A stretch of 64,000 nt of DNA from Trypanosoma brucei (taxonomy: Eukaryota). Below, one piece after another: positions 1-17,921 of this stretch. The notes beneath the pieces were generated by a model that saw nothing but the letters and a program-made list of their open reading frames with translations, was not told the DNA's origin and made no database searches. The stretch covers positions 288,001 to 352,000 of the forward strand of contig CP000071.1 of the NCBI GenBank assembly GCA_000002445.1, in the 5' to 3' direction. A program made the translations under genes and the position numbers. Within the stretch, counting starts at the first letter, position 1, and every line of letters begins with the position of its first letter.

Positions 1-516
1 CGTACCGTTAAGGGAATCGGAAGACACGCTTTCAGCAGCTCCCTTGCATTTTTCAGCCGCGCTCCTGACTCTCCAATTGGAATTGTGTCCTGCCACCTCC
101 TTCAACATGCGCTCTAACGCTGCTATACGATTGCTCCTGATCTCTTCAATATTCTCCGCCCTAAACTCAGTCTCAATGGATGCGGTTTCAGCTTTCTTGG
201 CGGCCTCAGTAACGTTGGAAGCAACACGCTTCGCACGCTCGACGGGATCGGTGGCATTTCTGTTCTCCCACAAGACATCCTCAGCCAAAGTTACATATTC
301 ATCACTCCGAGTCTTGGCATTCGATATCTTCAATGATTCGGTAGTTATCCAATATTTTAGGTCACGGACGGCATCTTTCAGTCCCCTGAACTGCTTCAGA
401 GCATTACACAATGTAACAGTTTGCTCAAGTGTAAGATTATTGTTCTTACCAACAGCAAATGGCATGCACAGGAGTACAACTGCTGTGAAACAGGTGAATC
501 GCGTCATTTGGCTCAA
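1..516 (-). CDS. Gene B copy 0, 5' part only (N-terminal ~172 codons). The gene continues to the left beyond the window. Product is an Ala-rich, GPI-anchored surface-protein family member.
   Basis: Reverse strand of 1..516 is near-identical to 10427..10943, the B1 N-terminus including the signal peptide MSQMTRFTCFTAVVLLCMPFAVG. The ATG lies at 516..514. Confidence 0.7.
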   Translation of the reverse strand, partial: MSQMTRFTCFTAVVLLCMPFAVGKNNNLTLEQTVTLCNALKQFRGLKDAVRDLKYWITTESLKISNAKTRSDEYVTLAEDVLWENRNATDPVERAKRVASNVTEAAKKAETASIETEFRAENIEEIRSNRIAALERMLKEVAGHNSNWRVRSAAEKCKGAAESVSSDSLNGT

Positions 517-555
517 CTCTCTCTTGGATGTGGAAATCTTGGAATGATGTTTCGT

Positions 556-588
556 CTACAAAATGGTAAGGAAAGATAGCAACAAAAG
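556..588 (-). promoter_or_regulatory. Polypyrimidine tract plus candidate AG spliced-leader acceptor upstream of the gene B start. The same element recurs at ~10983..11015 and ~21378..21410.
   Basis: The minus-strand sequence cttttgttgctatctttccttacc is followed by attttgtAG about 40 nt upstream of the ATG at 516. This is the typical kinetoplastid trans-splicing signal arrangement. This is inference; there is no RNA evidence. Confidence 0.35.
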
Positions 589-900
589 TTGATACTATGC
601 ATGAAATGACACGGAGAAAATGAGACCAACTGGAAGCCATAATTAGTCACTTATGCACAAGGCACAACATCTTTACGGAAAACACAACTAAAGTCGTTGA
701 CATACATGGACTACACAACACAGAAGCAGTGATGTATATGACAGTATGCCTCAGTCACACTTCCATATGTGCATGCACGCTCATAAGCATTGCCAACTTT
801 CTTGTTGTTCGTATCTTATCCATTCATAAAACATCCCCAACAGAGTGGCATCCATTGACAGCATGCGGTAATAAGTGCCTCCAGCAGCTGTCAGACAAGA

Positions 901-3900
901 TTAGTTGTGCGACGAATCACATGAGAGAGAAACATTGCTTTCCTCATCGTGATTGGGATACGCCTGCGCTTCGTCGACGGATGCCGCATGCGGATTATGA
1001 AAAGGTGGTGTGTCGTATACAGGCAGCACAGTGACTCCTTCACCGTCAACATGGGTGTGCCCGCTGTAATTTATAGTGTCTCTGCCACGAGTCGCAGTTG
1101 AGTTGAAGGGAAGCACAACGGCTTGGGGTAGTGGTAGAGGAATCGAGCGCATGGCCTGCTGCAAACGGACATAATCACTAAACTCGGCATCAACTATCGC
1201 CTGCCACTCCTCTTCCTCCCAGTTCACGAGCCGCATACGCCGCCCAGCCTCGCTTTCAAGCATAAACGTCGACTCCTCGTAGAAGTGCTGTGTAGTGGTG
1301 TAACTCATCATGTCATAACTCGTGAGCCGCGACGTATCATGAACGTCCGTCGACATCTCTGACATGGTATCATGAACGGAAACCTCGATTTCCTCACGTG
1401 TTTGCGATTGCAAGCGCCGACGCTGTGAGGCACGCCTCATATAAATGGCATTCAGCAGGTCCGGGTGATCTGCCGGTACAGTCACAGGTATTGGATTGAC
1501 ATTCACACCCCTGCCAGTCGGACCCTCATACATGCTGAATTCTCCACTGTAGTCAAATTGTAGTTCCAGTTCCTTTGCATCCACGCGGATACGCTCAATA
1601 CCGTCTGTAAAGACAAGCGCCATGTTGTAGCGGTCCCTCGCCTCCTGTAATGCGATCTGATCACGATCATCACACTCTTGCTCCTCGACAGAAGTCCAGT
1701 CCGCCCTCCCAGGAAAGTCACCGCCCCACGCAAAGTCGTCAACACCCGATGTCATGCCATCGATCATCGTCCTCGCGGTGGTATTGGTATTGGGGGAACC
1801 ATCACCAGAGTAGAACCCCAGAAGCAGTGGGTTGTTACCGCTTTCCAAATATTCGGGGTCGGGAGATGTTCCACTGATACAAGACATGTCGAGATTGTCC
1901 AGCTGCATCTTATCTGCAACGACAAGTTGTCGCTCCTCCTTCTCCTTAGAGCAGCATCGTCGCAAAAAGCACACGGCAAGCAACAACAGCAGCAGAAACA
2001 GCAACACAGCTGCCACAATAATGGCAATCACCGCCCCCATTCCCAATGGACCCCAAGCAGACCCACCACATATATCCCCACTTGCCTTCACATTACCCAA
2101 AGTAACGCAGTAGGTATTGTCTGTGAGGTCCCATGCGCAAACACTGAACTCCGTGCCCGCGGGGTAGTCTCTAATTTTGTTGTGGTTCATCCTCAACTTA
2201 CACTTGCCATCTGAGCCCTCACTGGCTTCCCCGACGGTGACGCCCTTGTCAGTGGGGTTGCAACAGTCACCCTTGATCACACGCACAACCGTCTGGCGGT
2301 GGGAAGAGTCCGGTGCACGGCACGACTCGAGTGGTGTCACCTTACAAGGTTCCACTATCGAAGGAAATACACTGACGGGTGGAATGAAGCGGAGGCTAGA
2401 GCTCAAAGGGACACTGACGACTGAACGGTTGACAGGAGTGGTAGCGCAGAAATATATCGAGTCCGTACCATTTTGCGCGGTAACAGAAACACGGCGGGCG
2501 CTTGCCGCGTCATCATCACCCACCAGTGCCCAACTTCCATGTGATTCATTTCGACGCAGGCAACTTCTGTCTGTGCTAAAACCGGGAAGCAAGCTCTCAG
2601 CATACAGGTCGTCCATCAAGTACAGAACGCCAGGAACACCAAGAAGGACGTCTCTCCCACGAATATTGTAATACGTAGGGTCAAATGTCTCAATCTGCGC
2701 AATCGGGAGGAGCTGCTTTGCCGAAGCAACACGTGCTGCTATCCCATTAGCGCTTATTTTCACAATTTTGGGACGCGTCGCACTGCCGTCAAAAACCTCC
2801 TGGCAGAGCGTCCACACACCCGCGGATGGTAACCCGGCCGCATTCACGTTCTTGAACGATATATTACCACGCGCCTCCTCGTCAGTCGTAAAGAATGGCA
2901 CCACGTCCTCACCACCACAGGAAGCATCTCGCCGCAGACGAAATGCTGAGTTTGGCGACAGAGGAATGTACACCTCTGCCTCCGTCCCCAGAACAAATGA
3001 CGACGGAAAGATGATATCAGTAGAAACCTCCACTTCCGATACAACACTGAGGTTCCCGGCGGGGGTCCCAACGCACAACGACACGGAAGGCAACCTCCCT
3101 GGAATGAAGGTCGGACCCAGTACAACGCTGCCGCTCGGCCGCACGTAACCCACAGAGTTCCCCGTCAGAGTGGTTGCGCACGCATTTTCGGAGAGATATA
3201 CGCCACGAAAGTCGGAGTTGTGTAGATACGCAAGTGGGTTCTCTGCGTCTTCCCCGGGCACTAACGAGTACAATGGCTTTGCTCCAGAGACCACAGGTGT
3301 CTGCAGTTTTGCGTGAAACCGAGCAGTGGGAACCGCCGCAGGATCGATCTTCTTCACGATGGGCGGAGTTATGATGAGAACCTCCGCTACTGGTATTGGA
3401 GGCGAGGTGGGTTGTTCCCCCAATACACATACACATTTCACGCCTGAGATACCTATTAGCGTAACCGCCTCCTCAACTGGGGTCTCTGCAAGACCGGGGG
3501 CCGCCACAATCTTCTCGCCACACACCGCGCAATCGCTTAGGTACGTGTCCGGTGTTCGGGTAGCGTAGTTCATCACTAAGTTCGCAGGCCCTAGCACCTC
3601 GCTGTCGCTATCCACACGTCCATGAATGCTAGGGTTCACAACACGGAAGTTTTCCACTGAAAGCGTCGGGCCATCTGTTGTGAAGACATACCCAGGATCC
3701 CTTATTGTGTGTGTACACACATAAAACGTAAGATTCCGATTGTACCGTGGCGTCATTGTGGCTCTGCTCTGACTAAGTACTCCATTGCAGTCACTCCTTG
3801 TGGAAAGAAAGGGACTGGTAAGGATCGCCTTGTCAATGCCATAGTCGGTTACTTGTTTCGCTGGAAGCGCCGTCACCGGCCGTACCGCAGGCTGCTTTCC

Positions 3901-6900
3901 ACCGGGGCATTCATCTAAGTGAATCAGTTGCATAGTCCCACGCATAACATACCCACCGCTTTCCCCACGCTCACAATAGTACACATCTGTCAGATCACGG
4001 TTCCGGTATTTGCACTTATCCACATGCAGCGTTGACATAGAGTTGGCTATGACCGTGTCGTACTCACTCAAGATACTGTCAGTACACGCTTCTAAGGTGG
4101 AGATCCTCACCCTCCCACTTTGAATGCCACTGGACTCCACGGTCACACTGCGACCTGCAATAATCGTCGCAGGAGTCATGTAGTGAAAAATATTGAAAGT
4201 AGATGCAGGCAACTTATCATACGCAGAAATACCGACACACACCCTGGCACCCTTCGCCACAGCTGGCGTCTTCACAATGGTAACATCCTTACTGTGTTCG
4301 CCGGAAGCAAAGGGAAAACTGTCATACGAAGCATTCGCCTCTGTGCAGTTAAGCTCTGGGGGGACAATGTAAACGGTGAGATTCGACGCCCCTATATGCA
4401 AGCTACCCCCATCAAGGGTCAAGCGAAGAGGTGTGTGCTTCCGTACGAGTGACACATTAAAGGACGCCGTAAACGGGTTAATCACCTTAAGGGGCTTCTG
4501 ACCAACAGCAACTCCCAAACGCCGCTCATCCTGCTGACACAATGCATATTCGCCTAGTAGAACATCCTCCAAGGGAGTAGTTGGCCCAGTGTAGTAGCGC
4601 TCAGTCGCCTCCTCACAAATCCTTGCATTCAGTGGGACTTTGCAGGAAGCGGCGTTGACACAGCGCACGAGGAACAAAGATGCCTTCTTAAGCAGCGGTC
4701 TTGCCACAAAATTATTCGTTGACCTACGGACAGCGTACAGAGAATCCACAGCAAAATCCTCAGCACTTACCTTCCCTCCGTACAAGTAATACGATTCATT
4801 GGTATCACCCCACCCCACGCAAACATGCAGTTCGCCAGCCTTCTGAACCACAAAAGGTTCTGCACTCCCACTTATGGGGTCAACCCAACCCTCACCGTAC
4901 ACCCTAATGCCACCACCGGGGGCACTTTGGCACGACTCAATGCTCTCGCTCACAAGAAAGCGTGTTGGCTGCAGCGCAGTCAGCGCCTCTCCTCGAAACC
5001 TCATGCTGAGGGGAAGACCAACAACGCCAATAGGTGAATCCGGCACAAGCTCTAGCTGCTGCTGTGACTGAATTAAACCTACATCTTCGTATCCATTCCC
5101 CTTCCACAGGCATACCTTCCATTTCTTCATACCAACAGCTGTGTAGACCACATACGCCGGACCCACTTCAGTAATTCTAATAGCAACGGCAGTACCATCA
5201 TCCACAATTTCGCCACAGTTCACATCACTCGTTTCCTTAAAAAGCACCTTCAGACCTTTGAGGGAGGTCTTATCAGGTACAATAAAATTGACTCGATTGC
5301 TTACGCCAACGAACACGGTCCTGGGGAATACCTCCACATCGGAAACAGCTAACATACCCGATACCCTCACTTTCCAGGCACCCCCATCACTGTCATGGTA
5401 ACCAACACATACGTACACCTTGCCAACTGTGTTGCGCATCACCGTCACGGACGCCTCCCCTTCAGCCGTTGCATTTACCTCAGAAATGGATGGTGTGCAG
5501 CTCTCACTTTCACTGAACACTATGGGCGCCTCAGGCGGTACGGCGGACACCTTGACGGGTGTACTGACACCTTTTACAATGGAAGCCGGCGACAACTCCG
5601 CAGGACCGTATACCATGACATTCCCAACGTTCGAATAGGGGCGATTCACAGGATGTTCCGTGCCCGGTGTCTTCACACACAGCACATGTCTACCCGCAGT
5701 AGAAAACGCAACGCCGTACAGGGCAGTTGCATTCATGGAGTATGTCTCCCCGACTGGTGTAAGGCAATTATCCAGGGAGAAATACCCGGTTGTTCCTGCC
5801 TTGAGAGTCACGTTGGCATCAAGATGAATCGTCTCAGCCACACCCACGAAAAGGGTCCGGTGTTTCAGTTTGTATCGCCGCGTCGCAATATTCTTCACAG
5901 GGTAGGTATATCCCTCGTCAGGTTCCTCGTCCGCTTGTAGGTCGACAGATGAGGGAGTCGCGACACACAAAGTCATGTTCGGGAGTGCGTCCTCAGGAAC
6001 TCGAAACGTGACAGAACTTGCGCCAACTCTCACATCACCTTTTGAGTTGAGTTCCTCACACTCCGGGGTTACCGATAAACCAACCGTTATCACACCACTC
6101 CGCCCCGCATTGTGGCCGCTCAACAAAACCGTCAAATCAAGTCCACTGATCACGTTGGCTTCATCAAATGATACCGTCGGTGGCGGCAGAACTGTCACAA
6201 CAGCCGCACGCGCCTTGGGGTATGCAGTCGTGCTCCCCTCAAGACACGCGTAGTACGTACCTGAAACAGGTAAGGCAACTGCACCCCCATCCGAACGCGA
6301 GCGACGCTTCTTTACTGGGGGGCCCCGATATTGGATTCCTGATGGACCATCCACACGCACAGCCCCTGTACAGTTGGAATACATGTAGAAATCAAGCACC
6401 AACTTCACATCGTTAGCAGCTGCAGTCGCTGCATCCATTGTATACTTAATGCGAGTCCCGTACCCACTGTATAGGGTCCGTGGCTGAACGCCGTACTCCC
6501 GAACAGTTACCTTGTTCTCAGATGGTGAATATAACCTGCCACCCTTGTGGTAGGGCCAACCATTACACAGAAAATAGTCACCTTTAGGCACAGAAACCTC
6601 CATATTAACAACCTGCAACGTTTCCCCACCCACGGGGTCCTGAAGGATCGGATCACATAGGGGTGACTGAGAAAAAGTTGCCCACACGAGGTTGCCTACA
6701 GCCTCCAAGCGAAATGTTTCGTTCGTGTGCCGAAGTGCATCAGTGTTGTTCGTGTCATAACGTGGCACAGCAAGTAACACAGAGGCAGGAACGACGAAAG
6801 TTTTGCCATCACTCGTGGGTACCTTAGCACAAAGATAAATTACGCTTTGGACACTCCGTGTCACTCTCACCTCCCGGTTAGAACCCAGTTCGGCAGGTGG

Positions 6901-7494
6901 CAGACCTTGAATCATGCTCACGTCGTCACAGTTTTCATTGCGGTGAAATGTAATGAAGGTTCCAACAGGCACTGCGTCGCCGAATCGAATAGTGTTGTCA
7001 ACATCACGTTTCAAATAGCGTGGTATGGCTTCAACAAGGCTCAGCTGCACAGACAAAGAAAGGGAGGGAAACGCATCACCAGCACATATATACACTTCAC
7101 GTACTTTCGTATCGTACCACGGGTCAATGCCCACATCATTGCTCGTAACCGTGAAATTACATGGCGCATTCTTGGATATTTTGCACTTGGAGCCAATGAT
7201 CTGTGTATTGTCACATGTACTCATACGCGAAACGAAAATATCTGCTTTGATACTCTGGTCCGTCGTTTCCACACTGAACGGTACGTTCACCAGCGGTTTG
7301 TTAGGTCGTAACACAAGTGATGCAGCTCCACTGCTGCATAAAAACGTTGACGACACGATGCACAGAACTGAAGCCCAAAAAGTAAAGGGCACCTTACAGC
7401 AATGTCGGTAACGTGGAGATAGAGAGGAAGCATGGCTGGTACCTGTGCCACAGTGGGTTGAGTCCCTTCTTAGAAACATTTGCATAAATACCAA
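901..7494 (-). CDS. Gene A copy 1: a 2197-aa type I transmembrane glycoprotein. It has an N-terminal hydrophobic signal region and ~1800 aa of ectodomain made of ~18 tandem ~95-aa Cys-containing modules. There is one TM helix (GAVIAIIVAAVLLFLLLLLLAVCFL) and a ~375-aa acidic cytoplasmic tail.
   Basis: A 6.6-kb uninterrupted ORF. The motif h-[YHF]-h-C-[VA]-G/T recurs at ~90-100 aa spacing, for example VYICAGDAF, IYLCAKVPTSDG, TLCVATPSS, VYVCVGYHDSDG, LHVCVGWGDTNE, ARVCVGISAYD, FYVCTHTIRDPG, SLCVGTPAGN and IYFCATTPVNRS. There are many N-x-S/T sequons. I recognised no enzyme motif. Confidence 0.85.
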   Translation of the reverse strand: MVFMQMFLRRDSTHCGTGTSHASSLSPRYRHCCKVPFTFWASVLCIVSSTFLCSSGAASLVLRPNKPLVNVPFSVETTDQSIKADIFVSRMSTCDNTQIIGSKCKISKNAPCNFTVTSNDVGIDPWYDTKVREVYICAGDAFPSLSLSVQLSLVEAIPRYLKRDVDNTIRFGDAVPVGTFITFHRNENCDDVSMIQGLPPAELGSNREVRVTRSVQSVIYLCAKVPTSDGKTFVVPASVLLAVPRYDTNNTDALRHTNETFRLEAVGNLVWATFSQSPLCDPILQDPVGGETLQVVNMEVSVPKGDYFLCNGWPYHKGGRLYSPSENKVTVREYGVQPRTLYSGYGTRIKYTMDAATAAANDVKLVLDFYMYSNCTGAVRVDGPSGIQYRGPPVKKRRSRSDGGAVALPVSGTYYACLEGSTTAYPKARAAVVTVLPPPTVSFDEANVISGLDLTVLLSGHNAGRSGVITVGLSVTPECEELNSKGDVRVGASSVTFRVPEDALPNMTLCVATPSSVDLQADEEPDEGYTYPVKNIATRRYKLKHRTLFVGVAETIHLDANVTLKAGTTGYFSLDNCLTPVGETYSMNATALYGVAFSTAGRHVLCVKTPGTEHPVNRPYSNVGNVMVYGPAELSPASIVKGVSTPVKVSAVPPEAPIVFSESESCTPSISEVNATAEGEASVTVMRNTVGKVYVCVGYHDSDGGAWKVRVSGMLAVSDVEVFPRTVFVGVSNRVNFIVPDKTSLKGLKVLFKETSDVNCGEIVDDGTAVAIRITEVGPAYVVYTAVGMKKWKVCLWKGNGYEDVGLIQSQQQLELVPDSPIGVVGLPLSMRFRGEALTALQPTRFLVSESIESCQSAPGGGIRVYGEGWVDPISGSAEPFVVQKAGELHVCVGWGDTNESYYLYGGKVSAEDFAVDSLYAVRRSTNNFVARPLLKKASLFLVRCVNAASCKVPLNARICEEATERYYTGPTTPLEDVLLGEYALCQQDERRLGVAVGQKPLKVINPFTASFNVSLVRKHTPLRLTLDGGSLHIGASNLTVYIVPPELNCTEANASYDSFPFASGEHSKDVTIVKTPAVAKGARVCVGISAYDKLPASTFNIFHYMTPATIIAGRSVTVESSGIQSGRVRISTLEACTDSILSEYDTVIANSMSTLHVDKCKYRNRDLTDVYYCERGESGGYVMRGTMQLIHLDECPGGKQPAVRPVTALPAKQVTDYGIDKAILTSPFLSTRSDCNGVLSQSRATMTPRYNRNLTFYVCTHTIRDPGYVFTTDGPTLSVENFRVVNPSIHGRVDSDSEVLGPANLVMNYATRTPDTYLSDCAVCGEKIVAAPGLAETPVEEAVTLIGISGVKCVCVLGEQPTSPPIPVAEVLIITPPIVKKIDPAAVPTARFHAKLQTPVVSGAKPLYSLVPGEDAENPLAYLHNSDFRGVYLSENACATTLTGNSVGYVRPSGSVVLGPTFIPGRLPSVSLCVGTPAGNLSVVSEVEVSTDIIFPSSFVLGTEAEVYIPLSPNSAFRLRRDASCGGEDVVPFFTTDEEARGNISFKNVNAAGLPSAGVWTLCQEVFDGSATRPKIVKISANGIAARVASAKQLLPIAQIETFDPTYYNIRGRDVLLGVPGVLYLMDDLYAESLLPGFSTDRSCLRRNESHGSWALVGDDDAASARRVSVTAQNGTDSIYFCATTPVNRSVVSVPLSSSLRFIPPVSVFPSIVEPCKVTPLESCRAPDSSHRQTVVRVIKGDCCNPTDKGVTVGEASEGSDGKCKLRMNHNKIRDYPAGTEFSVCAWDLTDNTYCVTLGNVKASGDICGGSAWGPLGMGAVIAIIVAAVLLFLLLLLLAVCFLRRCCSKEKEERQLVVADKMQLDNLDMSCISGTSPDPEYLESGNNPLLLGFYSGDGSPNTNTTARTMIDGMTSGVDDFAWGGDFPGRADWTSVEEQECDDRDQIALQEARDRYNMALVFTDGIERIRVDAKELELQFDYSGEFSMYEGPTGRGVNVNPIPVTVPADHPDLLNAIYMRRASQRRRLQSQTREEIEVSVHDTMSEMSTDVHDTSRLTSYDMMSYTTTQHFYEESTFMLESEAGRRMRLVNWEEEEWQAIVDAEFSDYVRLQQAMRSIPLPLPQAVVLPFNSTATRGRDTINYSGHTHVDGEGVTVLPVYDTPPFHNPHAASVDEAQAYPNHDEESNVSLSCDSSHN

Positions 7495-9521
7495 ACGCTA
7501 CAACAACCTTCTCAGTACTCGCTTATTCCCTTTCTCTCAACGTGTATGCCTTTATGCTCTTGCAGAAAACTATTTACGGTGTGCGTATTCGCCAACCCGC
7601 GTAAACCTAAGACGATTGTGCACAGACTCCTCTGTCTCTGTCTCTCACACTAGTTCCTTACCACGCGACCCGTTTAAGAGGGAAGTGGCTAAACTATGTA
7701 AGGTGCTTATGGAATTACTACGGTACTGACCTTCACTTATCTTCGTGTACTCCGTTTAACTTTCAATTGCCCCTCCGCAGTGATGAACTCTTTTGTTTGA
7801 TTTCTTCTATGGTTGCTTCTATCCTCAGTTACTATGAAGATACAGCTGTATCTATTACCTCCGTTACTCGACAAAAATGTTTCCCCGGTGAAAAAGGGAT
7901 GTGCCTCTATGGATATACAAATGTATGAGTCCACAAATGTATGGATATGCAGGTGTAGAAAATATGCGACCCTACACGTACAGCTTTTCTATGTAACGTC
8001 CTGTTGAAATGGTCCTCGTTTACTCTTATTTGTGCTTTCTCGTATCGTTGTCGATCTCCTTCCCGTTCCACAACAGACTTTTCTCGCAATATCGCTCGCC
8101 TGTGTATCGGTAAATCAATTCACAAAACACCTTTATGGTAGGAACGGTATATCAAACTGATGAATATTTAGTGTGCGAAGCTTGAGGCTACGCTACTGAT
8201 CAATGCGGACAACACGTCGGGCAGAAAACTACAGAAACTAAAACAAAAGGGCTAAAAATGCGGTAAAAAAATCTATAAACCTATGTAAATGATGGTAGCG
8301 ATATATTGTCAGAGCTGCTTCGCGAAACAGAAATGGCAACTGAATGGCTAACTAAAAAAAACAAAAAAGATCTAGCAGTAATATCGCGCTGCTTCTGCAC
8401 AACGTCTAAAGTGTGATGCACGGAAAGGAAGTAGTTTTTCAAGAGAAGTGCACACAAAATGGTAAGCACATGGGTGAGGAATGCGCTCCATAGACATCAA
8501 TGAATAAACCCCGCGCACACAAGCAAGTGAAACGACATATCAAAAGAAGTTACAATGCAACACTTAAAGAGTACAACATGTGCTGGTGAAGTAACAAAAC
8601 CCACACATTCACTTTTTAAAAATGGTCAAAAGATATAATGCCCCTGAATTTATTAAGAAGAGGTGGGCATCAGGGTAGCACAGGCGGATACAACTCCAGG
8701 CCAAGAGGGCAACAAAGACATATGAACTGCAAGTGCAAACAATTACTATAATGTTTTACATTTAGCAACCGACACACTATAAATGACCACAAGGGACTTT
8801 AACATGTCCCCGATAGATCCACCCACAATCGCTAAACGAAGTAATTCAAGCGAGCACATAAACTCACGGCAACATTCCAAGCGTAGCAAACACAATGTAG
8901 TGGAGAGCAGACGTACAGCACCTGGAAGGCGCCATCTCAAACTCGGTACTCACTAATACATACCACACAGCTGCACAGTTCAGTCATATAATGAACATTA
9001 AACGGTTATATATATAATAACTGCTACAATAAGGAAAAAAAGGGAGGGGGGAAAGGGAAGCAATTATGAAGTCAAGACTAAATTAATACTTTACATACAC
9101 AGCAGAGAATTGCACAATCTGTAAAGCGCTCACACATGTAAGTATACACAAGAAGGAGTAAACACTAAAATGAAAACACGGATGAAAATAATGAAGAAAC
9201 GCTAACGCACCTGCTCACCAACACAACATAGCAGTCTACATTGCTGTATATGTGATGTGCATAAAATGTCGAGAAACTAGGAACAAACACTAAATAAAGG
9301 TACCAGAATAGCCATGCCGATACTTTAAAAGAAAAAAAGAATTTATAAAAAAATATATTAGGATCATGATTAGCATATAAAAGTGAAAACGCTATTGAAA
9401 ACAATGGCAACGATAAAACCATAACGAGAAGCCTTAAGTAACACCCAACAATGACACGTTTGCGTGTATGTAATCCCTCACGCTAATCCTTGGCTGCTAC
9501 ACCGAAACGGTACTACTTGGA

Positions 9522-10943: not shown

Positions 10944-11327
10944 CTCTCTCTTGGATGTGGAAATCTTGGAATGATGTTTCGTCTACAAAATGGTAAGGAA
11001 AGATAGCAACAAAAGTTGATACTATGCATGAAATGACACGGAGAAAAGGAGACCAACTGGAAGCCATAATTAGTCACTTATGCACAAGGCACAACATCTT
11101 TACGGAAAACACAACTAAAGTCGTTGACATACATGGACTACACAACACAGAAGCAGTGATGTATATGACAGTATGCCTCAGTCACACTTCCATATGTGCA
11201 TGCACGCTCATAAGCATTGCCAACTTTCTTGTTGTTCGTATCTTATCCATTCATAAAACATCCCCAACAGAGTGGCATCCATTGACAGCATGCGGTAATA
11301 AGTGCCTCCAGCAGCTGTCAGACAAGA

Positions 11328-14300
11328 TTAGTTGTGCGACGAATCACATGAGAGAGAAACATTGCTTTCCTCATCGTGATTGGGATACGCCTGCGCTTCG
11401 TCGACGGATGCCGCATGCGGATTATGAAAAGGTGGTGTGTCGTATACAGGCAGCACAGTGACTCCTTCACCGTCAACATGGGTGTGCCCGCTGTAATTTA
11501 TAGTGTCTCTGCCACGAGTCGCAGTTGAGTTGAAGGGAAGCACAACGGCTTGGGGTAGTGGTAGAGGAATCGAGCGCATGGCCTGCTGCAAACGGACATA
11601 ATCACTAAACTCGGCATCAACTATCGCCTGCCACTCCTCTTCCTCCCAGTTCACGAGCCGCATACGCCGCCCAGCCTCGCTTTCAAGCATAAACGTCGAC
11701 TCCTCGTAGAAGTGCTGTGTAGTGGTGTAACTCATCATGTCATAACTCGTGAGCCGCGACGTATCATGAACGTCCGTCGACATCTCTGACATGGTATCAT
11801 GAACGGAAACCTCGATTTCCTCACGTGTTTGCGATTGCAAGCGCCGACGCTGTGAGGCACGCCTCATATAAATGGCATTCAGCAGGTCCGGGTGATCTGC
11901 CGGTACAGTCACAGGTATTGGATTGACATTCACACCCCTGCCAGTCGGACCCTCATACATGCTGAATTCTCCACTGTAGTCAAATTGTAGTTCCAGTTCC
12001 TTTGCATCCACGCGGATACGCTCAATACCGTCTGTAAAGACAAGCGCCATGTTGTAGCGGTCCCTCGCCTCCTGTAATGCGATCTGATCACGATCATCAC
12101 ACTCTTGCTCCTCGACAGAAGTCCAGTCCGCCCTCCCAGGAAAGTCACCGCCCCACGCAAAGTCGTCAACACCCGATGTCATGCCATCGATCATCGTCCT
12201 CGCGGTGGTATTGGTATTGGGGGAACCATCACCAGAGTAGAACCCCAGAAGCAGTGGGTTGTTACCGCTTTCCAAATATTCGGGGTCGGGAGATGTTCCA
12301 CTGATACAAGACATGTCGAGATTGTCCAGCTGCATCTTATCTGCAACGACAAGTTGTCGCTCCTCCTTCTCCTTAGAGCAGCATCGTCGCAAAAAGCACA
12401 CGGCAAGCAACAACAGCAGCAGAAACAGCAACACAGCTGCCACAATAATGGCAATCACCGCCCCCATTCCCAATGGACCCCAAGCAGACCCACCACATAT
12501 ATCCCCACTTGCCTTCACATTACCCAAAGTAACGCAGTAGGTATTGTCTGTGAGGTCCCATGCGCAAACACTGAACTCCGTGCCCGCGGGGTAGTCTCTA
12601 ATTTTGTTGTGGTTCATCCTCAACTTACACTTGCCATCTGAGCCCTCACTGGCTTCCCCGACGGTGACGCCCTTGTCAGTGGGGTTGCAGCAGTCACCCT
12701 TGATCACACGCACAACCGTCTGGCGGTGGGAAGAGTCCGGTGCACGGCACGACTCGAGTGGTGTCACCTTACAAGGTTCCACTATCGAAGGAAATACACT
12801 GACGGGTGGAATGAAGCGGAGGCTAGAGCTCAAAGGGACACTGACGACTGAACGGTTGACAGGAGTGGTAGCGCAGAAATATATCGAGTCCGTACCATTT
12901 TGCGCGGTAACAGAAACACGGCGGGCGCTTGCCGCGTCATCATCACCCACCAGTGCCCAACTTCCATGTGATTCATTTCGACGCAGGCAACTTCTGTCTG
13001 TGCTAAAACCGGGAAGCAAGCTCTCAGCATACAGGTCGTCCATCAAGTACAGAACGCCAGGAACACCAAGAAGGACGTCTCTCCCACGAATATTGTAATA
13101 CGTAGGGTCAAATGTCTCAATCTGCGCAATCGGGAGGAGCTGCTTTGCCGAAGCAACACGTGCTGCTATCCCATTAGCGCTTATTTTCACAATTTTGGGA
13201 CGCGTCGCACTGCCGTCAAAAACCTCCTGGCAGAGCGTCCACACACCCGCGGATGGTAACCCGGCCGCATTCACGTTCTTGAACGATATATTACCACGCG
13301 CCTCCTCGTCAGTCGTAAAGAATGGCACCACGTCCTCACCACCACAGGAAGCATCTCGCCGCAGACGAAATGCTGAGTTTGGCGACAGAGGAATGTACAC
13401 CTCTGCCTCCGTCCCCAGAACAAATGACGACGGAAAGATGATATCAGTAGAAACCTCCACTTCCGATACAACACTGAGGTTCCCGGCGGGGGTCCCAACG
13501 CACAACGACACGGAAGGCAACCTCCCTGGAATGAAGGTCGGACCCAGTACAACGCTGCCGCTCGGCCGCACGTAACCCACAGAGTTCCCCGTCAGAGTGG
13601 TTGCGCACGCATTTTCGGAGAGATATACGCCACGAAAGTCGGAGTTGTGTAGATACGCAAGTGGGTTCTCTGCGTCTTCCCCGGGCACTAACGAGTACAA
13701 TGGCTTTGCTCCAGAGACCACAGGTGTCTGCAGTTTTGCGTGAAACCGAGCAGTGGGAACCGCCGCAGGATCGATCTTCTTCACGATGGGCGGAGTTATG
13801 ATGAGAACCTCCGCTACTGGTATTGGAGGCGAGGTGGGTTGTTCCCCCAATACACATACACATTTCACGCCTGAGATACCTATTAGCGTAACCGCCTCCT
13901 CAACTGGGGTCTCTGCAAGACCGGGGGCCGCCACAATCTTCTCGCCACACACCGCGCAATCGCTTAGGTACGTGTCCGGTGTTCGGGTAGCGTAGTTCAT
14001 CACTAAGTTCGCAGGCCCTAGCACCTCGCTGTCGCTATCCACACGTCCATGAATGCTAGGGTTCACAACACGGAAGTTTTCCACTGAAAGCGTCGGGCCA
14101 TCTGTTGTGAAGACATACCCAGGATCCCTTATTGTGTGTGTACACACATAAAACGTAAGATTCCGATTGTACCGTGGCGTCATTGTGGCTCTGCTCTGAC
14201 TAAGTACTCCATTGCAGTCACTCCTTGTGGAAAGAAAGGGACTGGTAAGGATCGCCTTGTCAATGCCATAGTCGGTTACTTGTTTCGCTGGAAGCGCCGT

Positions 14301-17300
14301 CACCGGCCGTACCGCAGGCTGCTTTCCACCGGGGCATTCATCTAAGTGAATCAGTTGCATAGTCCCACGCATAACATACCCACCGCTTTCCCCACGCTCA
14401 CAATAGTACACATCTGTCAGATCACGGTTCCGGTATTTGCACTTATCCACATGCAGCGTTGACATAGAGTTGGCTATGACCGTGTCGTACTCACTCAAGA
14501 TACTGTCAGTACACGCTTCTAAGGTGGAGATCCTCACCCTCCCACTTTGAATGCCACTGGACTCCACGGTCACACTGCGACCTGCAATAATCGTCGCAGG
14601 AGTCATGTAGTGAAAAATATTGAAAGTAGATGCAGGCAACTTATCATACGCAGAAATACCGACACACACCCTGGCACCCTTCGCCACAGCTGGCGTCTTC
14701 ACAATGGTAACATCCTTACTGTGTTCGCCGGAAGCAAAGGGAAAACTGTCATACGAAGCATTCGCCTCTGTGCAGTTAAGCTCTGGGGGGACAATGTAAA
14801 CGGTGAGATTCGACGCCCCTATATGCAAGCTACCCCCATCAAGGGTCAAGCGAAGAGGTGTGTGCTTCCGTACGAGTGACACATTAAAGGACGCCGTAAA
14901 CGGGTTAATCACCTTAAGGGGCTTCTGACCAACAGCAACTCCCAAACGCCGCTCATCCTGCTGACACAATGCATATTCGCCTAGTAGAACATCCTCCAAG
15001 GGAGTAGTTGGCCCAGTGTAGTAGCGCTCAGTCGCCTCCTCACAAATCCTTGCATTCAGTGGGACTTTGCAGGAAGCGGCGTTGACACAGCGCACGAGGA
15101 ACAAAGATGCCTTCTTAAGCAGCGGTCTTGCCACAAAATTATTCGTTGACCTACGGACAGCGTACAGAGAATCCACAGCAAAATCCTCAGCACTTACCTT
15201 CCCTCCGTACAAGTAATACGATTCATTGGTATCACCCCACCCCACGCAAACATGCAGTTCGCCAGCCTTCTGAACCACAAAAGGTTCTGCACTCCCACTT
15301 ATGGGGTCAACCCAACCCTCACCGTACACCCTAATGCCACCACCGGGGGCACTTTGGCACGACTCAATGCTCTCGCTCACAAGAAAGCGTGTTGGCTGCA
15401 GCGCAGTCAGCGCCTCTCCTCGAAACCTCATGCTGAGGGGAAGACCAACAACGCCAATAGGTGAATCCGGCACAAGCTCTAGCTGCTGCTGTGACTGAAT
15501 TAAACCTACATCTTCGTATCCATTCCCCTTCCACAGGCATACCTTCCATTTCTTCATACCAACAGCTGTGTAGACCACATACGCCGGACCCACTTCAGTA
15601 ATTCTAATAGCAACGGCAGTACCATCATCCACAATTTCGCCACAGTTCACATCACTCGTTTCCTTAAAAAGCACCTTCAGACCTTTGAGGGAGGTCTTAT
15701 CAGGTACAATAAAATTGACTCGATTGCTTACGCCAACGAACACGGTCCTGGGGAATACCTCCACATCGGAAACAGCTAACATACCCGATACCCTCACTTT
15801 CCAGGCACCCCCATCACTGTCATGGTAACCAACACATACGTACACCTTGCCAACTGTGTTGCGCATCACCGTCACGGACGCCTCCCCTTCAGCCGTTGCA
15901 TTTACCTCAGAAATGGATGGTGTGCAGCTCTCACTTTCACTGAACACTATGGGCGCCTCAGGCGGTACGGCGGACACCTTGACGGGTGTACTGACACCTT
16001 TTACAATGGAAGCCGGCGACAACTCCGCAGGACCGTATACCATGACATTCCCAACGTTCGAATAGGGGCGATTCACAGGATGTTCCGTGCCCGGTGTCTT
16101 CACACACAGCACATGTCTACCCGCAGTAGAAAACGCAACGCCGTACAGGGCAGTTGCATTCATGGAGTATGTCTCCCCGACTGGTGTAAGGCAATTATCC
16201 AGGGAGAAATACCCGGTTGTTCCTGCCTTGAGAGTCACGTTGGCATCAAGATGAATCGTCTCAGCCACACCCACGAAAAGGGTCCGGTGTTTCAGTTTGT
16301 ATCGCCGCGTCGCAATATTCTTCACAGGGTAGGTATATCCCTCGTCAGGTTCCTCGTCCGCTTGTAGGTCGACAGATGAGGGAGTCGCGACACACAAAGT
16401 CATGTTCGGGAGTGCGTCCTCAGGAACTCGAAACGTGACAGAACTTGCGCCAACTCTCACATCACCTTTTGAGTTGAGTTCCTCACACTCCGGGGTTACC
16501 GATAAACCAACCGTTATCACACCACTCCGCCCCGCATTGTGGCCGCTCAACAAAACCGTCAAATCAAGTCCACTGATCACGTTGGCTTCATCAAATGATA
16601 CCGTCGGTGGCGGCAGAACTGTCACAACAGCCGCACGCGCCTTGGGGTATGCAGTCGTGCTCCCCTCAAGACACGCGTAGTACGTACCTGAAACAGGTAA
16701 GGCAACTGCACCCCCATCCGAACGCGAGCGACGCTTCTTTACTGGGGGGCCCCGATATTGGATTCCTGATGGACCATCCACACGCACAGCCCCTGTACAG
16801 TTGGAATACATGTAGAAATCAAGCACCAACTTCACATCGTTAGCAGCTGCAGTCGCTGCATCCATTGTATACTTAATGCGAGTCCCGTACCCACTGTATA
16901 GGGTCCGTGGCTGAACGCCGTACTCCCGAACAGTTACCTTGTTCTCAGATGGTGAATATAACCTGCCACCCTTGTGGTAGGGCCAACCATTACACAGAAA
17001 ATAGTCACCTTTAGGCACAGAAACCTCCATATTAACAACCTGCAACGTTTCCCCACCCACGGGGTCCTGAAGGATCGGATCACATATGGGTGACTGAGAA
17101 AAAGTTGCCCACACGAGGTTGCCTACAGCCTCCAAGCGAAATGTTTCGTTCGTGTGCCGAAGTGCATCAGTGTTGTTCGTGTCATAACGTGGCACAGCAA
17201 GTAACACAGAGGCAGGAACGACGAAAGTTTTGCCATCACTCGTGGGTACCTTAGCACAAAGATAAATTACGCTTTGGACACTCCGTGTCACTCTCACCTC

Positions 17301-17921
17301 CCGGTTAGAACCCAGTTCGGCAGGTGGCAGACCTTGAATCATGCTCACGTCGTCACAGTTTTCATTGCGGTGAAATGTAATGAAGGTTCCAACAGGCACT
17401 GCGTCGCCGAATCGAATAGTGTTGTCAACATCACGTTTCAAATAGCGTGGTATGGCTTCAACAAGGCTCAGCTGCACAGACAAAGAAAGGGAGGGAAACG
17501 CATCACCAGCACATATATACACTTCACGTACTTTCGTATCGTACCACGGGTCAATGCCCACATCATTGCTCGTAACCGTGAAATTACATGGCGCATTCTT
17601 GGATATTTTGCACTTGGAGCCAATGATCTGTGTATTGTCACATGTACTCATACGCGAAACGAAAATATCTGCTTTGATACTCTGGTCCGTCGTTTCCACA
17701 CTGAACGGTACGTTCACCAGCGGTTTGTTAGGTCGTAACACAAGTGATGCAGCTCCACTGCTGCATAAAAACGTTGACGACACGATGCACAGAACTGAAG
17801 CCCAAAAAGTAAAGGGCACCTTACAGCAATGTCGGTAACGTGGAGATAGAGAGGAAGCATGGCTGGTACCTGTGCCACAGTGGGTTGAGTCCCTTCTTAG
17901 AAACATTTGCATAAATACCAA
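11328..17921 (-). CDS. Gene A copy 2: a 2197-aa type I transmembrane modular surface protein. It differs from copy 1 by one residue (SPLCDPIL versus SPICDPIL).
   Basis: The ORF is identical in length and frame to 901..7494 at an offset of 10427. Confidence 0.85.
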   Translation of the reverse strand: MVFMQMFLRRDSTHCGTGTSHASSLSPRYRHCCKVPFTFWASVLCIVSSTFLCSSGAASLVLRPNKPLVNVPFSVETTDQSIKADIFVSRMSTCDNTQIIGSKCKISKNAPCNFTVTSNDVGIDPWYDTKVREVYICAGDAFPSLSLSVQLSLVEAIPRYLKRDVDNTIRFGDAVPVGTFITFHRNENCDDVSMIQGLPPAELGSNREVRVTRSVQSVIYLCAKVPTSDGKTFVVPASVLLAVPRYDTNNTDALRHTNETFRLEAVGNLVWATFSQSPICDPILQDPVGGETLQVVNMEVSVPKGDYFLCNGWPYHKGGRLYSPSENKVTVREYGVQPRTLYSGYGTRIKYTMDAATAAANDVKLVLDFYMYSNCTGAVRVDGPSGIQYRGPPVKKRRSRSDGGAVALPVSGTYYACLEGSTTAYPKARAAVVTVLPPPTVSFDEANVISGLDLTVLLSGHNAGRSGVITVGLSVTPECEELNSKGDVRVGASSVTFRVPEDALPNMTLCVATPSSVDLQADEEPDEGYTYPVKNIATRRYKLKHRTLFVGVAETIHLDANVTLKAGTTGYFSLDNCLTPVGETYSMNATALYGVAFSTAGRHVLCVKTPGTEHPVNRPYSNVGNVMVYGPAELSPASIVKGVSTPVKVSAVPPEAPIVFSESESCTPSISEVNATAEGEASVTVMRNTVGKVYVCVGYHDSDGGAWKVRVSGMLAVSDVEVFPRTVFVGVSNRVNFIVPDKTSLKGLKVLFKETSDVNCGEIVDDGTAVAIRITEVGPAYVVYTAVGMKKWKVCLWKGNGYEDVGLIQSQQQLELVPDSPIGVVGLPLSMRFRGEALTALQPTRFLVSESIESCQSAPGGGIRVYGEGWVDPISGSAEPFVVQKAGELHVCVGWGDTNESYYLYGGKVSAEDFAVDSLYAVRRSTNNFVARPLLKKASLFLVRCVNAASCKVPLNARICEEATERYYTGPTTPLEDVLLGEYALCQQDERRLGVAVGQKPLKVINPFTASFNVSLVRKHTPLRLTLDGGSLHIGASNLTVYIVPPELNCTEANASYDSFPFASGEHSKDVTIVKTPAVAKGARVCVGISAYDKLPASTFNIFHYMTPATIIAGRSVTVESSGIQSGRVRISTLEACTDSILSEYDTVIANSMSTLHVDKCKYRNRDLTDVYYCERGESGGYVMRGTMQLIHLDECPGGKQPAVRPVTALPAKQVTDYGIDKAILTSPFLSTRSDCNGVLSQSRATMTPRYNRNLTFYVCTHTIRDPGYVFTTDGPTLSVENFRVVNPSIHGRVDSDSEVLGPANLVMNYATRTPDTYLSDCAVCGEKIVAAPGLAETPVEEAVTLIGISGVKCVCVLGEQPTSPPIPVAEVLIITPPIVKKIDPAAVPTARFHAKLQTPVVSGAKPLYSLVPGEDAENPLAYLHNSDFRGVYLSENACATTLTGNSVGYVRPSGSVVLGPTFIPGRLPSVSLCVGTPAGNLSVVSEVEVSTDIIFPSSFVLGTEAEVYIPLSPNSAFRLRRDASCGGEDVVPFFTTDEEARGNISFKNVNAAGLPSAGVWTLCQEVFDGSATRPKIVKISANGIAARVASAKQLLPIAQIETFDPTYYNIRGRDVLLGVPGVLYLMDDLYAESLLPGFSTDRSCLRRNESHGSWALVGDDDAASARRVSVTAQNGTDSIYFCATTPVNRSVVSVPLSSSLRFIPPVSVFPSIVEPCKVTPLESCRAPDSSHRQTVVRVIKGDCCNPTDKGVTVGEASEGSDGKCKLRMNHNKIRDYPAGTEFSVCAWDLTDNTYCVTLGNVKASGDICGGSAWGPLGMGAVIAIIVAAVLLFLLLLLLAVCFLRRCCSKEKEERQLVVADKMQLDNLDMSCISGTSPDPEYLESGNNPLLLGFYSGDGSPNTNTTARTMIDGMTSGVDDFAWGGDFPGRADWTSVEEQECDDRDQIALQEARDRYNMALVFTDGIERIRVDAKELELQFDYSGEFSMYEGPTGRGVNVNPIPVTVPADHPDLLNAIYMRRASQRRRLQSQTREEIEVSVHDTMSEMSTDVHDTSRLTSYDMMSYTTTQHFYEESTFMLESEAGRRMRLVNWEEEEWQAIVDAEFSDYVRLQQAMRSIPLPLPQAVVLPFNSTATRGRDTINYSGHTHVDGEGVTVLPVYDTPPFHNPHAASVDEAQAYPNHDEESNVSLSCDSSHN

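What the first reader, a model, noticed from the sequence alone, without database searches (positions are those of the whole stretch)
901..7494. Gene A ectodomain is built from ~18 tandem ~95-residue modules, each with a conserved h-Y/H-h-C-[VA]-G/T strand
The motif positions I mapped are approximately residues 133, 217, 304, 410, 503, 598, 687, 787, 881, 973, 1072, 1160, 1245, 1340, 1458, 1546, 1664 and 1765. After these come the TM helix at ~1802-1826 and a ~375-aa acidic cytoplasmic tail. The regular ~90-100 aa period with one invariant Cys-containing beta-strand is the signature of a string of small beta-sandwich (Ig/PKD/cadherin-like) domains. That would form a long rod-like ectodomain typical of adhesins. 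The acidic cytoplasmic tail is long enough to carry signalling or cytoskeleton-docking function. The same applies to copy 2 at 11328..17921.
Basis: seen in the sequence. Interest (0 to 1): 0.7.

Follow-up and report, generated by a model that had tools for sequence, protein, structure and literature searches.

The report
Trypanosome flagella-connector adhesin built of Ig-like domains
The gene (present twice in tandem) is almost certainly Trypanosoma brucei FCP1, a known protein of the junction that ties the growing flagellum to the old one.

Summary
The window is T. brucei TREU927 chromosome 8. Gene A (901-7485, minus strand, 2194 aa from the first ATG) and its copy (11328-17912, one amino-acid difference) are "hypothetical protein, conserved". 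Gene order plus the literature identifies them as Tb927.8.940 and Tb927.8.960, which is FCP1, flagella connector protein 1.

The ectodomain holds 18 modules with a mean period of 97 aa. Each carries a conserved cysteine pair, not a single Cys: [LF]-S-x4-C, then 13-42 residues (mostly 25-40), then G-x-h-Y-h-C-[VA]. These cysteines are kept in 16-19 of 19 trypanosomatid orthologs.

- Single-sequence methods and Pfam see no repeat.
- Profile-profile comparison links most modules to each other.
- A leave-one-module-out HMM test ties 17 of the 18 positions together. The Cys-rich membrane-proximal module 18 is the exception.
- AlphaFold2 models of modules 7-9 (pLDDT 92) and 10-18 (pLDDT 83) are all-beta.
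- No cadherin or PKD signature is present.

A transmembrane helix (1817-1841), a palmitoylatable CxxxxCC, and a 352-aa acidic tail with two conserved motifs follow.

The adhesin reading fits the published placement of FCP1 in the interstitial zone of the flagella connector. The result is a new member of a known kind, of moderate interest.

The parts
901..7485 (-). Gene A copy 1, CDS from the first ATG to the stop (2194 aa). Equals XP_846931 / Q57YD7. Inferred to be Tb927.8.940 (FCP1).
   Evidence: gene-order mapping
11328..17912 (-). Gene A copy 2 (2194 aa, L276I relative to copy 1). Equals XP_846933 / Q57XH9. Inferred to be Tb927.8.960 (FCP1).
7315..7485 (-). N-terminal residues 1-57: a long n-region followed by a hydrophobic signal sequence (about 34-56).
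   Evidence: hydrophobic window 40-59. Orthologs have short classical signal peptides.
2377..7314 (-). Residues 58-1703: seventeen homologous modules of about 85-120 aa. These are Ig-like beta-sandwiches, each with a conserved Cys pair ([LF]-S-x4-C ... G-x-h-Y-h-C-[VA]).
   Evidence: AF2 models of modules 7-9 and 10-17. Fold searches.
4741..5616 (-). Residues 624-915 (modules 7-9), modelled with AlphaFold2: pLDDT 92.3, pTM 0.85, three beta-sandwiches. The motif Cys sits in the penultimate strand of each.
1981..4758 (-). Residues 910-1835 (modules 10-18 plus the TM helix), modelled with AlphaFold2: pLDDT 83.3, all-beta domains. Low confidence only at 1567-1588 and 1807-1815.
2056..2376 (-). Residues 1704-1810: membrane-proximal module 18. 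It is Cys-rich (9 Cys) and predicted beta-rich, but a profile of the other modules does not recognise it.
1963..2037 (-). Transmembrane helix, residues 1817-1841.
   Evidence: hydropathy 3.5; helix at residues 1816-1834
1951..1971 (-). Juxtamembrane cysteines C1839, C1844 and C1845 (CFLRRCC), the likely palmitoylation site.
   Evidence: One search gives the sequence. Tb927.8.960 is reported as palmitoylated (PMC4765897). That these are the modified cysteines is inference.
904..1962 (-). Cytoplasmic tail, residues 1842-2194: 352 aa, pI 4.45, 62 D/E against 28 K/R.
1555..1674 (-). Conserved tail block 1, residues about 1938-1977 (DDRDQIALQEARDRYNM...IER).
1156..1308 (-). Conserved tail block 2, residues about 2060-2110 (MSYTTTQ.FY.E...RR.R..NWEEEEW).
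1..8605 (.). First copy of the near-identical tandem duplication. It equals 10428-19032, with 5 mismatches and a unit of 10427 bp.

Best explanation
Gene A and its tandem twin encode FCP1 (Tb927.8.940 / Tb927.8.960), a type I membrane glycoprotein of Trypanosoma brucei.

Anatomy (shown):
- A signal sequence.
- An ectodomain of about 1750 aa made of 17 homologous Ig-like beta-sandwich domains. This domain family is specific to the lineage.
- One divergent Cys-rich membrane-proximal domain.
- A single TM helix and a juxtamembrane CxxxxCC.
- A 352-aa acidic tail with two conserved blocks that look helical from the sequence (they were not modelled).

Inferred about the domains: each is stapled by a disulfide between a Cys that follows an early strand and the Cys in the penultimate G-x-h-Y-h-C strand.

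Mechanism (inferred from the anatomy plus published localisation and RNAi): the protein is delivered to the flagellar membrane in procyclic forms. Its ectodomains fill the interstitial zone of the flagella connector and bind in trans, either to each other or to a partner on the opposite flagellum. [quoted passage not shown] The tail blocks dock the molecule to the intraflagellar connector layers, which are linked to the axonemes by FCP3 and the kinesins FCP2 and FCP4.

The junction gap is only 13-28 nm, whereas 18 domains would span about 70-80 nm if straight. The ectodomains must therefore lie obliquely, flat or folded back. That could account for the stacked periodic filaments seen by cryo-tomography.
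For: Identity:
- 100% match to T. brucei TREU927 XP_846931 and XP_846933 on the 2.48-Mb chromosome.
- The window order is GARP-like (partial) / gene A / GARP-like / gene A / GARP-like / PAGM / RRM protein.
- The literature gives Tb927.8.930, 950 and 970 as a GPI-anchored family, Tb927.8.980 as PAGM and Tb927.8.990 as RBP33.
- Tb927.8.940 is FCP1 and Tb427.08.960 is also FCP1. This matches two identical copies.
- Tb927.8.960 is palmitoylated and up-regulated in procyclic forms. This fits the CxxxxCC motif and a connector that exists only in procyclic forms.

Architecture:
- Cys pairs are conserved in 16-19 of 19 orthologs.
- hhalign links modules at 60-95% probability, while module-versus-tail controls reach at most 0.5%.
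- The leave-one-out HMM recognises 17 of 18 module positions.
- AF2 gives pLDDT 92.3 and pTM 0.85 for three modules, and pLDDT 83.3 for nine modules plus the TM helix. Every motif Cys falls in the penultimate strand.
- The ectodomain has 19 N-glycosylation sequons.

Function:
- FCP1 represents zone 3, between the two flagellar membranes.
- Its depletion causes premature disconnection.
- Cryo-ET shows regular filaments projecting from both membranes, with a dense midline.
- The tail blocks are conserved from Trypanosoma to Leptomonas.
Against: - The gene-ID mapping rests on gene order and papers. No record directly links the accession to Tb927.8.940, and Varga et al. 2017 could not be read.
- Disulfide bonding could not be measured because no model coordinates were available.
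- Modules 1-6 were not modelled. Module 1 has only weak hhalign support (at most 44%), and the T. brucei copies of modules 10, 12, 14 and 18 score within the decoy range.
- Trans-binding, its partner and tail docking are all untested.
- Orthologs exist in Leishmania, Leptomonas and T. cruzi, which are not known to have a flagella connector. Connector adhesion therefore cannot be the family's only or ancestral role.
- A straight 18-domain rod does not fit the 13-28 nm gap.
Confidence: 0.72

Rival explanations
1. The family is an ancient, general flagellar-membrane adhesion or spacer molecule of trypanosomatids, for example for flagellum-pocket, flagellum-cell-body or flagellum-substrate contacts. 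On this view T. brucei merely co-opted it into the flagella connector, and trans-adhesion between two flagella is a derived side function.
For: - Collinear orthologs with the same Cys pattern occur in T. vivax, T. grayi, T. cruzi, Leishmania, Leptomonas and unnamed kinetoplastid assemblies.
- Synteny with PAGM is kept in a EukProt gene model.
- Leishmaniinae carry two paralogs with different tails.
- The connector is described as present only in T. brucei.
Against: - No localisation or phenotype is known for any ortholog outside T. brucei.
- It is none of the known Leishmania adhesion proteins KIAP1-4. KIAP1 is C-type-lectin-like, KIAP2 and KIAP3 are calpain-like, and KIAP4 is the canonical ARND-family member.
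- In T. brucei the published signal is specific to the connector.
Confidence: 0.35
2. The ectodomain is not itself an adhesin. It would be a passive ruler or scaffold, or a receptor whose long stalk senses contact, while adhesion is carried by another molecule. The acidic tail would signal rather than anchor.
For: - No known ligand-binding domain or motif is present: no RGD, and no lectin or cadherin calcium sites.
- The ectodomain is much longer than the junction gap.
- The interstitial zone thins from 28 to 13 nm as the connector matures. This suggests a rearranging scaffold.
Against: - Depletion of FCP1 disconnects the flagella.
- Tandem Ig-like arrays commonly bind through the domains themselves, as in ICAM, Dscam and contactin, which are the structural neighbours.
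- The tail has no kinase, phosphatase or other signalling domain.
Confidence: 0.15
3. The roughly 95-aa periodicity is not a true repeat family. It would reflect unrelated beta-rich segments that happen to share spaced cysteines, that is, convergence or chance.
For: - Self-BLAST finds nothing.
- Iterative HMMER from module 7 recruits no other module.
- Pfam finds no repeat.
- Many module pairs have hhalign probability below 5%.
- The Cys periodogram alone is only modestly significant, with 7 of 500 shuffles reaching the observed value.
Against: - 25 module pairs reach at least 50% hhalign probability and form one connected network. Tail controls reach at most 0.5%.
- A profile that excludes each module position still recognises 17 of 18 positions above decoys.
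- All 12 modelled modules have the same strand order, with the motif Cys in the penultimate strand.
Confidence: 0.04

Closest known systems
FCP1, flagella connector protein 1 of Trypanosoma brucei (Tb927.8.940 / Tb927.8.960; Varga et al. 2017, as cited in PMC6529878, PMC11555346 and PMC9826329)
   Same: By gene order this is the same gene. [quoted passage not shown]
   Different: The papers I could read give no domain description. The 17+1 Ig-like module architecture, the conserved Cys pairs, the tail blocks and the wide distribution across trypanosomatids are added here. I could not read the original FCP1 paper, so some of this may already be published.
Metazoan cell-adhesion molecules made of tandem Ig/FN3 domains (ICAM-1/5, Dscam, contactin, Robo, MAG)
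   Same: Type I membrane topology, a string of beta-sandwich domains of about 90-100 aa, a disulfide-bearing Y-x-C-type strand, N-glycosylation and cell-cell junction function. They are Foldseek neighbours at E of about 1e-7.
   Different: Identity is only 9-15%. There is no Pfam Ig, I-set or FN3 hit and no significant PDB sequence match (best E 0.16). The Cys-Cys spacing is 13-42 residues, mostly 25-40, rather than about 55-70. The family is found only in kinetoplastids.
Classical and desmosomal cadherins, and the protocadherin-15 / cadherin-23 tip link
   Same: Single-pass membrane proteins with long chains of beta-sandwich domains. They bridge two membranes in trans, produce a dense midline, and are anchored to the cytoskeleton through a cytoplasmic tail.
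   Different: No Ca2+-binding linker motifs are present: DxNDN 0 and DRE 0. There is no cadherin Pfam hit. The domains are disulfide-stapled, and there is no catenin-binding tail.
Bacterial giant adhesins with Ig-like repeats (Bap, SiiE, the MpAFP/RTX adhesin extender, GhpA) and the gingipain / PorZ IgSF domains
   Different: They are prokaryotic, their repeats are near-identical and often Ca2+-dependent, and they have no TM helix plus cytoplasmic tail. Identity is 10-18%.
FLA1 / FLA1BP, the T. brucei flagellum attachment zone membrane adhesion pair
   Same: Trypanosome single-pass glycoproteins that hold a flagellar membrane against another membrane through their ectodomains. This statement rests on my own knowledge of the literature.
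   Different: From memory, FLA1 and FLA1BP use NHL-repeat (beta-propeller) ectodomains rather than Ig-like chains. No similarity to them appeared in any search here. I did not compare them directly.

Membership tests
Ig-like beta-sandwich fold (structural class) | Two-sheet beta-sandwich of about 7-8 strands in about 90-100 residues | tested here: met
Immunoglobulin superfamily in the sequence sense (Pfam Ig, I-set, V-set, C2-set) | Significant match to an Ig-family profile | tested here: not met
   The Pfam scan of the whole protein at E<=1 gave only three TM-region noise hits. The profile of modules 7-9 against PDB sequences gave a best E of 0.16-0.21, and one of those hits was a Robo1 Ig domain.
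Immunoglobulin superfamily | Intradomain disulfide between the B and F strands (F-strand Y-x-C), packed on a core Trp | tested here: inconclusive
   The second Cys lies in the penultimate (F-like) strand within G-x-h-Y-h-C. The first Cys follows an early strand in a turn and lies only 13-42 residues upstream. No conserved Trp is seen. Cys-Cys distances could not be measured because no coordinates were available.
Cadherin repeat | Ca2+-binding motifs at the domain linkers (DxNDN, LDRE, DxD) and a cadherin profile match | tested here: not met
   DxNDN 0, [LIV]DRE 0, and DxD 4 scattered occurrences. No Pfam cadherin hit.
PKD domain | WDFGDG-type signature and a PKD profile match | tested here: not met
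   WD[FWY]GDG 0 and GDG 0. No Pfam PKD or REJ hit.
FCP1 (Tb927.8.940 / Tb927.8.960) | Encoded by the two tandem genes between the GPI-anchored genes Tb927.8.930, 950 and 970 and upstream of PAGM (Tb927.8.980) | tested here: met
   The window order is GARP-like / gene A / GARP-like / gene A / GARP-like / PAGM / RRM. The gene IDs come from PMC3378594, PMC8483307, PMC3465800, PMC4162612, PMC6529878 and the supplement of PMC9826329. This is inference from gene order, not a direct accession link.
Flagella connector component | [quoted passage not shown] | not testable with these tools
   Literature only.
Type I membrane glycoprotein | N-terminal signal sequence, one TM helix, N-glycosylation sequons and conserved Cys on the N-terminal side only | tested here: met
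   Hydrophobic segments at 40-59 and 1809-1847, 19 N-x-S/T sequons and 50 Cys in the ectodomain. The ectodomain Cys are conserved, the tail Cys are not. A TM helix appears in the AF2 model.

The most novel reading that the evidence does not exclude
The FCP1 family would be the trypanosomatids' own cadherin analogue: an ancient Ig-like-chain adhesion receptor restricted to kinetoplastids.

In T. brucei its 18-domain ectodomains would lie flat or zig-zag between the two flagellar membranes. They would themselves form the periodic lattice of the connector's interstitial zone (7 nm by 11 nm), collapsing from three stacks to one as the junction matures from 28 to 13 nm.

In species without a connector, such as Leishmania, T. 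cruzi and Leptomonas, the orthologs would mediate other flagellar membrane contacts that still lack a known adhesin.
Probability: 0.2. Interest if true: 0.65.

Novelty: new member of a known kind. Interest (0 to 1): 0.42.

Why it matters
The flagella connector is a rare example of a mobile transmembrane junction. Its cytoplasmic motors and plates are partly catalogued, but in the papers I could read nothing describes what bridges the extracellular gap.

Recognising FCP1 as a chain of 17+1 disulfide-stapled Ig-like domains, with a palmitoylatable anchor and two conserved tail blocks, gives a concrete and testable model. The tests include domain deletions, tags placed in the ectodomain, recombinant domains for binding assays, and fitting to existing cryo-tomograms.

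It also defines a domain family that Pfam lacks. The family is conserved across trypanosomatids, including human pathogens that have no connector, which points to an unstudied surface or flagellar adhesion molecule in Leishmania and T. cruzi.

The gene, its localisation and its knock-down phenotype are already published, so this adds anatomy to a known player rather than finding a new system.

Tried and rejected
- Self-BLASTP with permissive settings returned only the identity hit.
- Iterative hmmsearch seeded with module 7 recruited no other module at i-E<0.01.
- hhalign with only 4 orthologs per module gave few links. It needed the 19-ortholog alignment.
- Two homologous-protein runs with the full protein or a 4-sequence profile returned only 4 orthologs, limited by the word index.
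- The exhaustive representative search found 28 proteins, all collinear orthologs. No other protein family carries this module.
- The tail-profile search found only a T. congolense fragment. There is therefore no evidence that the tail blocks are shared with other proteins, though sensitivity was limited.
- The AFDB50 fold library was unavailable.
- Varga et al. 2017 could not be retrieved by DOI, PMC id or PubMed id.
- Accession-number searches of the literature found nothing.
- I considered and rejected FC1 as the identity: it is Tb927.11.1340.
- I considered and rejected KIAP1-3 and the ARND/KIAP4 adhesion proteins, which have different domains.
- I considered and rejected cadherin and PKD membership.
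- I considered and rejected a tandem DNA repeat as the origin of the modules: TRF finds none in 1-23000.

Full report
WHAT IS IN THE WINDOW

All large ORFs lie on the minus strand and are separated by long gaps. This is the look of a trypanosomatid polycistronic unit.

The 2194-aa product of 901-7485 (first ATG; the listed ORF starts three codons earlier at a TTG) is 100% identical to "hypothetical protein, conserved" of Trypanosoma brucei brucei TREU927. Its accession is XP_846931 / Q57YD7, on a 2.48-Mb chromosome. The second copy is XP_846933 / Q57XH9.

The two copies sit in a 10,427-bp tandem duplication. Window 1-8605 equals 10428-19032 with five mismatches. The proteins differ only at residue 276, L versus I.

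CHECKING THE OBSERVATION

The eighteen h-Y/H-h-C sites exist. In ATG numbering the Cys lies at 134, 219, 307, 414, 507, 603, 693, 792, 889, 983, 1083, 1171, 1257, 1353, 1471, 1561, 1680 and 1783. Spacing is 85-119 aa, mean 97.

The TM helix is 1817-1841, not 1802-1826. The tail is 352 aa with pI 4.45.

Pooled over 18 modules and 19 orthologs, the consensus is [LF]-S-x4-C for the first Cys and G-x-[YLVF]-[YF]-[LV]-C-[VA] for the second. All these cysteines are kept in 16-19 of 19 orthologs, whereas cysteines in the tail are not.

IS IT MORE THAN CHANCE?

Simple tests are weak:
- Self-BLAST finds nothing.
- Iterative HMMER from one module recruits no other.
- Pfam sees no domain.
- The Cys periodogram peak at 95 aa is reached by 7 of 500 shuffles.

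Stronger tests are clear:
- The strand motif occurs 14 times against 4.6 expected, with a maximum of 12 in 2000 shuffles.
- With 19-ortholog sub-alignments, hhalign links modules 2-10 and 12-17 in one network. 25 pairs reach at least 50% probability and 11 reach at least 80%. All 54 module-versus-tail controls stay at or below 0.5%.
- In a leave-one-position-out test, an HMM built from the other 17 module positions scored the omitted position above the 99th percentile of 2000 shuffled decoys. This held in 10-19 of the 18-19 orthologs scored for positions 1-17, but in only 2 of 19 for position 18.

There are therefore seventeen homologous modules plus one divergent, Cys-rich membrane-proximal domain.

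STRUCTURE

AlphaFold2 with a 19-ortholog alignment gave a confident model of residues 624-915, which are modules 7-9 (pLDDT 92.3, pTM 0.85). It shows three all-beta domains of 7-8 strands.

Residues 910-1835 (modules 10-18 plus the TM helix) gave pLDDT 83.3. Beta domains run throughout, followed by a terminal helix. Only a linker at 1567-1588 and the juxtamembrane stretch at 1807-1815 are uncertain.

In all 12 modelled modules the motif Cys sits in the penultimate strand, followed by a long last strand. The first Cys sits in a turn after an early strand. Disulfide formation is inferred from conservation and the extracellular location. I had no coordinates to measure it.

The fold searches agree with each other:
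- Foldseek returns tandem arrays such as GhpA, ICAM-1/5, LILR/KIR, Dscam, contactin and fibronectin.
- A profile of the three modules finds nothing significant among PDB sequences, with a best E of 0.16.
- Cadherin calcium-site motifs and the PKD signature are absent.

The domains nevertheless form their own sequence family.

DISTRIBUTION

An exhaustive profile search of 1.84 billion representative proteins with modules 5-11 found only 28 proteins. All are collinear and mostly of about 1,900-3,400 aa, apart from a few short fragments.

The named ones are T. vivax, T. grayi, T. cruzi, Leishmania tarentolae, L. guyanensis and Leptomonas seymouri, which has two paralogs.

One EukProt gene model fuses a phosphoacetylglucosamine mutase to the ortholog. 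This is the same neighbourhood as in this window, so synteny supports orthology.

IDENTITY

Pfam on the neighbours gives GARP-family surface proteins at 9522-10943 and 19950-21338. A third, truncated GARP-like gene lies at 1-516. Next comes PAGM at 23464-25272 and an RRM protein at 28912-29868.

The literature supplies the gene IDs:
- Tb927.8.980 is PAGM and Tb927.8.990 is RBP33.
- Tb927.8.930, 950 and 970 are a GPI-anchored family expressed in the salivary glands.

The two interleaved genes must therefore be Tb927.8.940 and Tb927.8.960. Tb927.8.940 is listed as FCP1, the reference marker of the flagella connector. Tb427.08.960 is also listed as FCP1, localising to "Cytoplasm, ER" in bloodstream forms. 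Tb927.8.960 is reported as palmitoylated and up-regulated in procyclic forms.

Two genes with one name, an ER signal when the structure is absent, palmitoylation next to a CFLRRCC motif, and procyclic expression all fit gene A. FC1 is a different gene, Tb927.11.1340.

HOW IT PROBABLY WORKS

[quoted passage not shown] Depletion of FCP1 detaches the new flagellum tip prematurely.

Cryo-tomography shows regular filaments projecting from both membranes with a darker midline. The lines lie 7 nm apart, with densities every 11 nm. The gap shrinks from 28±6 nm to 13±2 nm, while three stacks of densities reduce to one.

A type I protein with a long chain of Ig-like domains is the obvious candidate for these filaments. 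I infer trans-binding of the ectodomains and docking of the conserved tail blocks to the intraflagellar plates.

One problem remains. At about 4-4.5 nm per Ig-like domain (general knowledge), 18 domains span about 70-80 nm. That is several times the gap, so the chains cannot stand upright. They must lie flat, oblique or folded, which may be what the stacked periodic layers are. This is speculation.

WHAT REMAINS OPEN

- The orthologs in Leishmania, Leptomonas and T. cruzi, organisms not known to build a connector, argue that the family has another, probably older, role. They are not the known Leishmania attachment proteins KIAP1-4.
- In Leishmaniinae only one of the two paralogs keeps the tail blocks.
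- A search with the tail profile found no other protein carrying the blocks, but that search has limited reach.

VERDICT

The gene is a known, functionally characterised protein. What is added is its anatomy: a kinetoplastid-specific Ig-like domain family repeated 17 times, a divergent membrane-proximal domain, a lipidated anchor and conserved tail blocks.

This is a new member of a known kind, namely tandem Ig-like adhesion receptors. It is of moderate interest, mainly to trypanosome cell biologists.

Noticed in passing
window 1-516, 9522-10943, 19950-21338 (minus strand): Three GARP-family (PF16731) surface-protein genes, inferred to be Tb927.8.930, 950 and 970, interleave with the two FCP1 copies. 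The first two share an N-terminal 172 aa with one change. The second and third share an identical 73-aa N-terminus but are only 41% identical overall. The array is therefore a mosaic, probably shaped by gene conversion.
   Followed up: partly
window 10717-11235 vs 21112-21630: A second block of near-identity with a different offset (10395 rather than 10427). It covers the 5' ends and upstream regions of the GARP-like genes.
   Followed up: partly
P0025 (EukProt gene model, 3372 aa): This gene model fuses an RRM-like N-terminus, a phosphoacetylglucosamine mutase (Pfam AMG1/PGM, residues 350-853) and the FCP1 ortholog. The order is the same as RBP33 / PAGM / FCP1 in this window, so the synteny is conserved and the fusion is probably an annotation artefact.
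   Followed up: partly
P0012 (3017 aa ortholog): It appears to contain an internal duplication of about nine modules, because long stretches of the sequence recur almost verbatim. This could be a real expansion or an assembly or gene-model artefact.
   Followed up: no
orthologs P0018 vs P0019 (Leptomonas seymouri), and P0003, P0004, P0013, P0015 (P0003 L. tarentolae, P0004 L. guyanensis; P0013 and P0015 not named by any search): Leishmaniinae carry two paralogs of the family. Only the P0018 type keeps the two conserved cytoplasmic blocks. The other type has an unrelated tail.
   Followed up: partly
window 7315-7485 (residues 1-57): The T. brucei protein has an unusually long N-terminal region (about 33 residues, including 3 Cys) before the hydrophobic signal core. 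Orthologs such as that of T. grayi start directly with a classical signal peptide.
   Followed up: no
window 42827-50788 (minus strand): A 2653-aa ORF with only weak WD40 / beta-propeller Pfam matches, all below the gathering thresholds. It was not characterised here.
   Followed up: no
window 54517-57171 and 31329-32111 (minus strand): ORFs of 884 aa and 260 aa with no Pfam match at E<=0.001.
   Followed up: no
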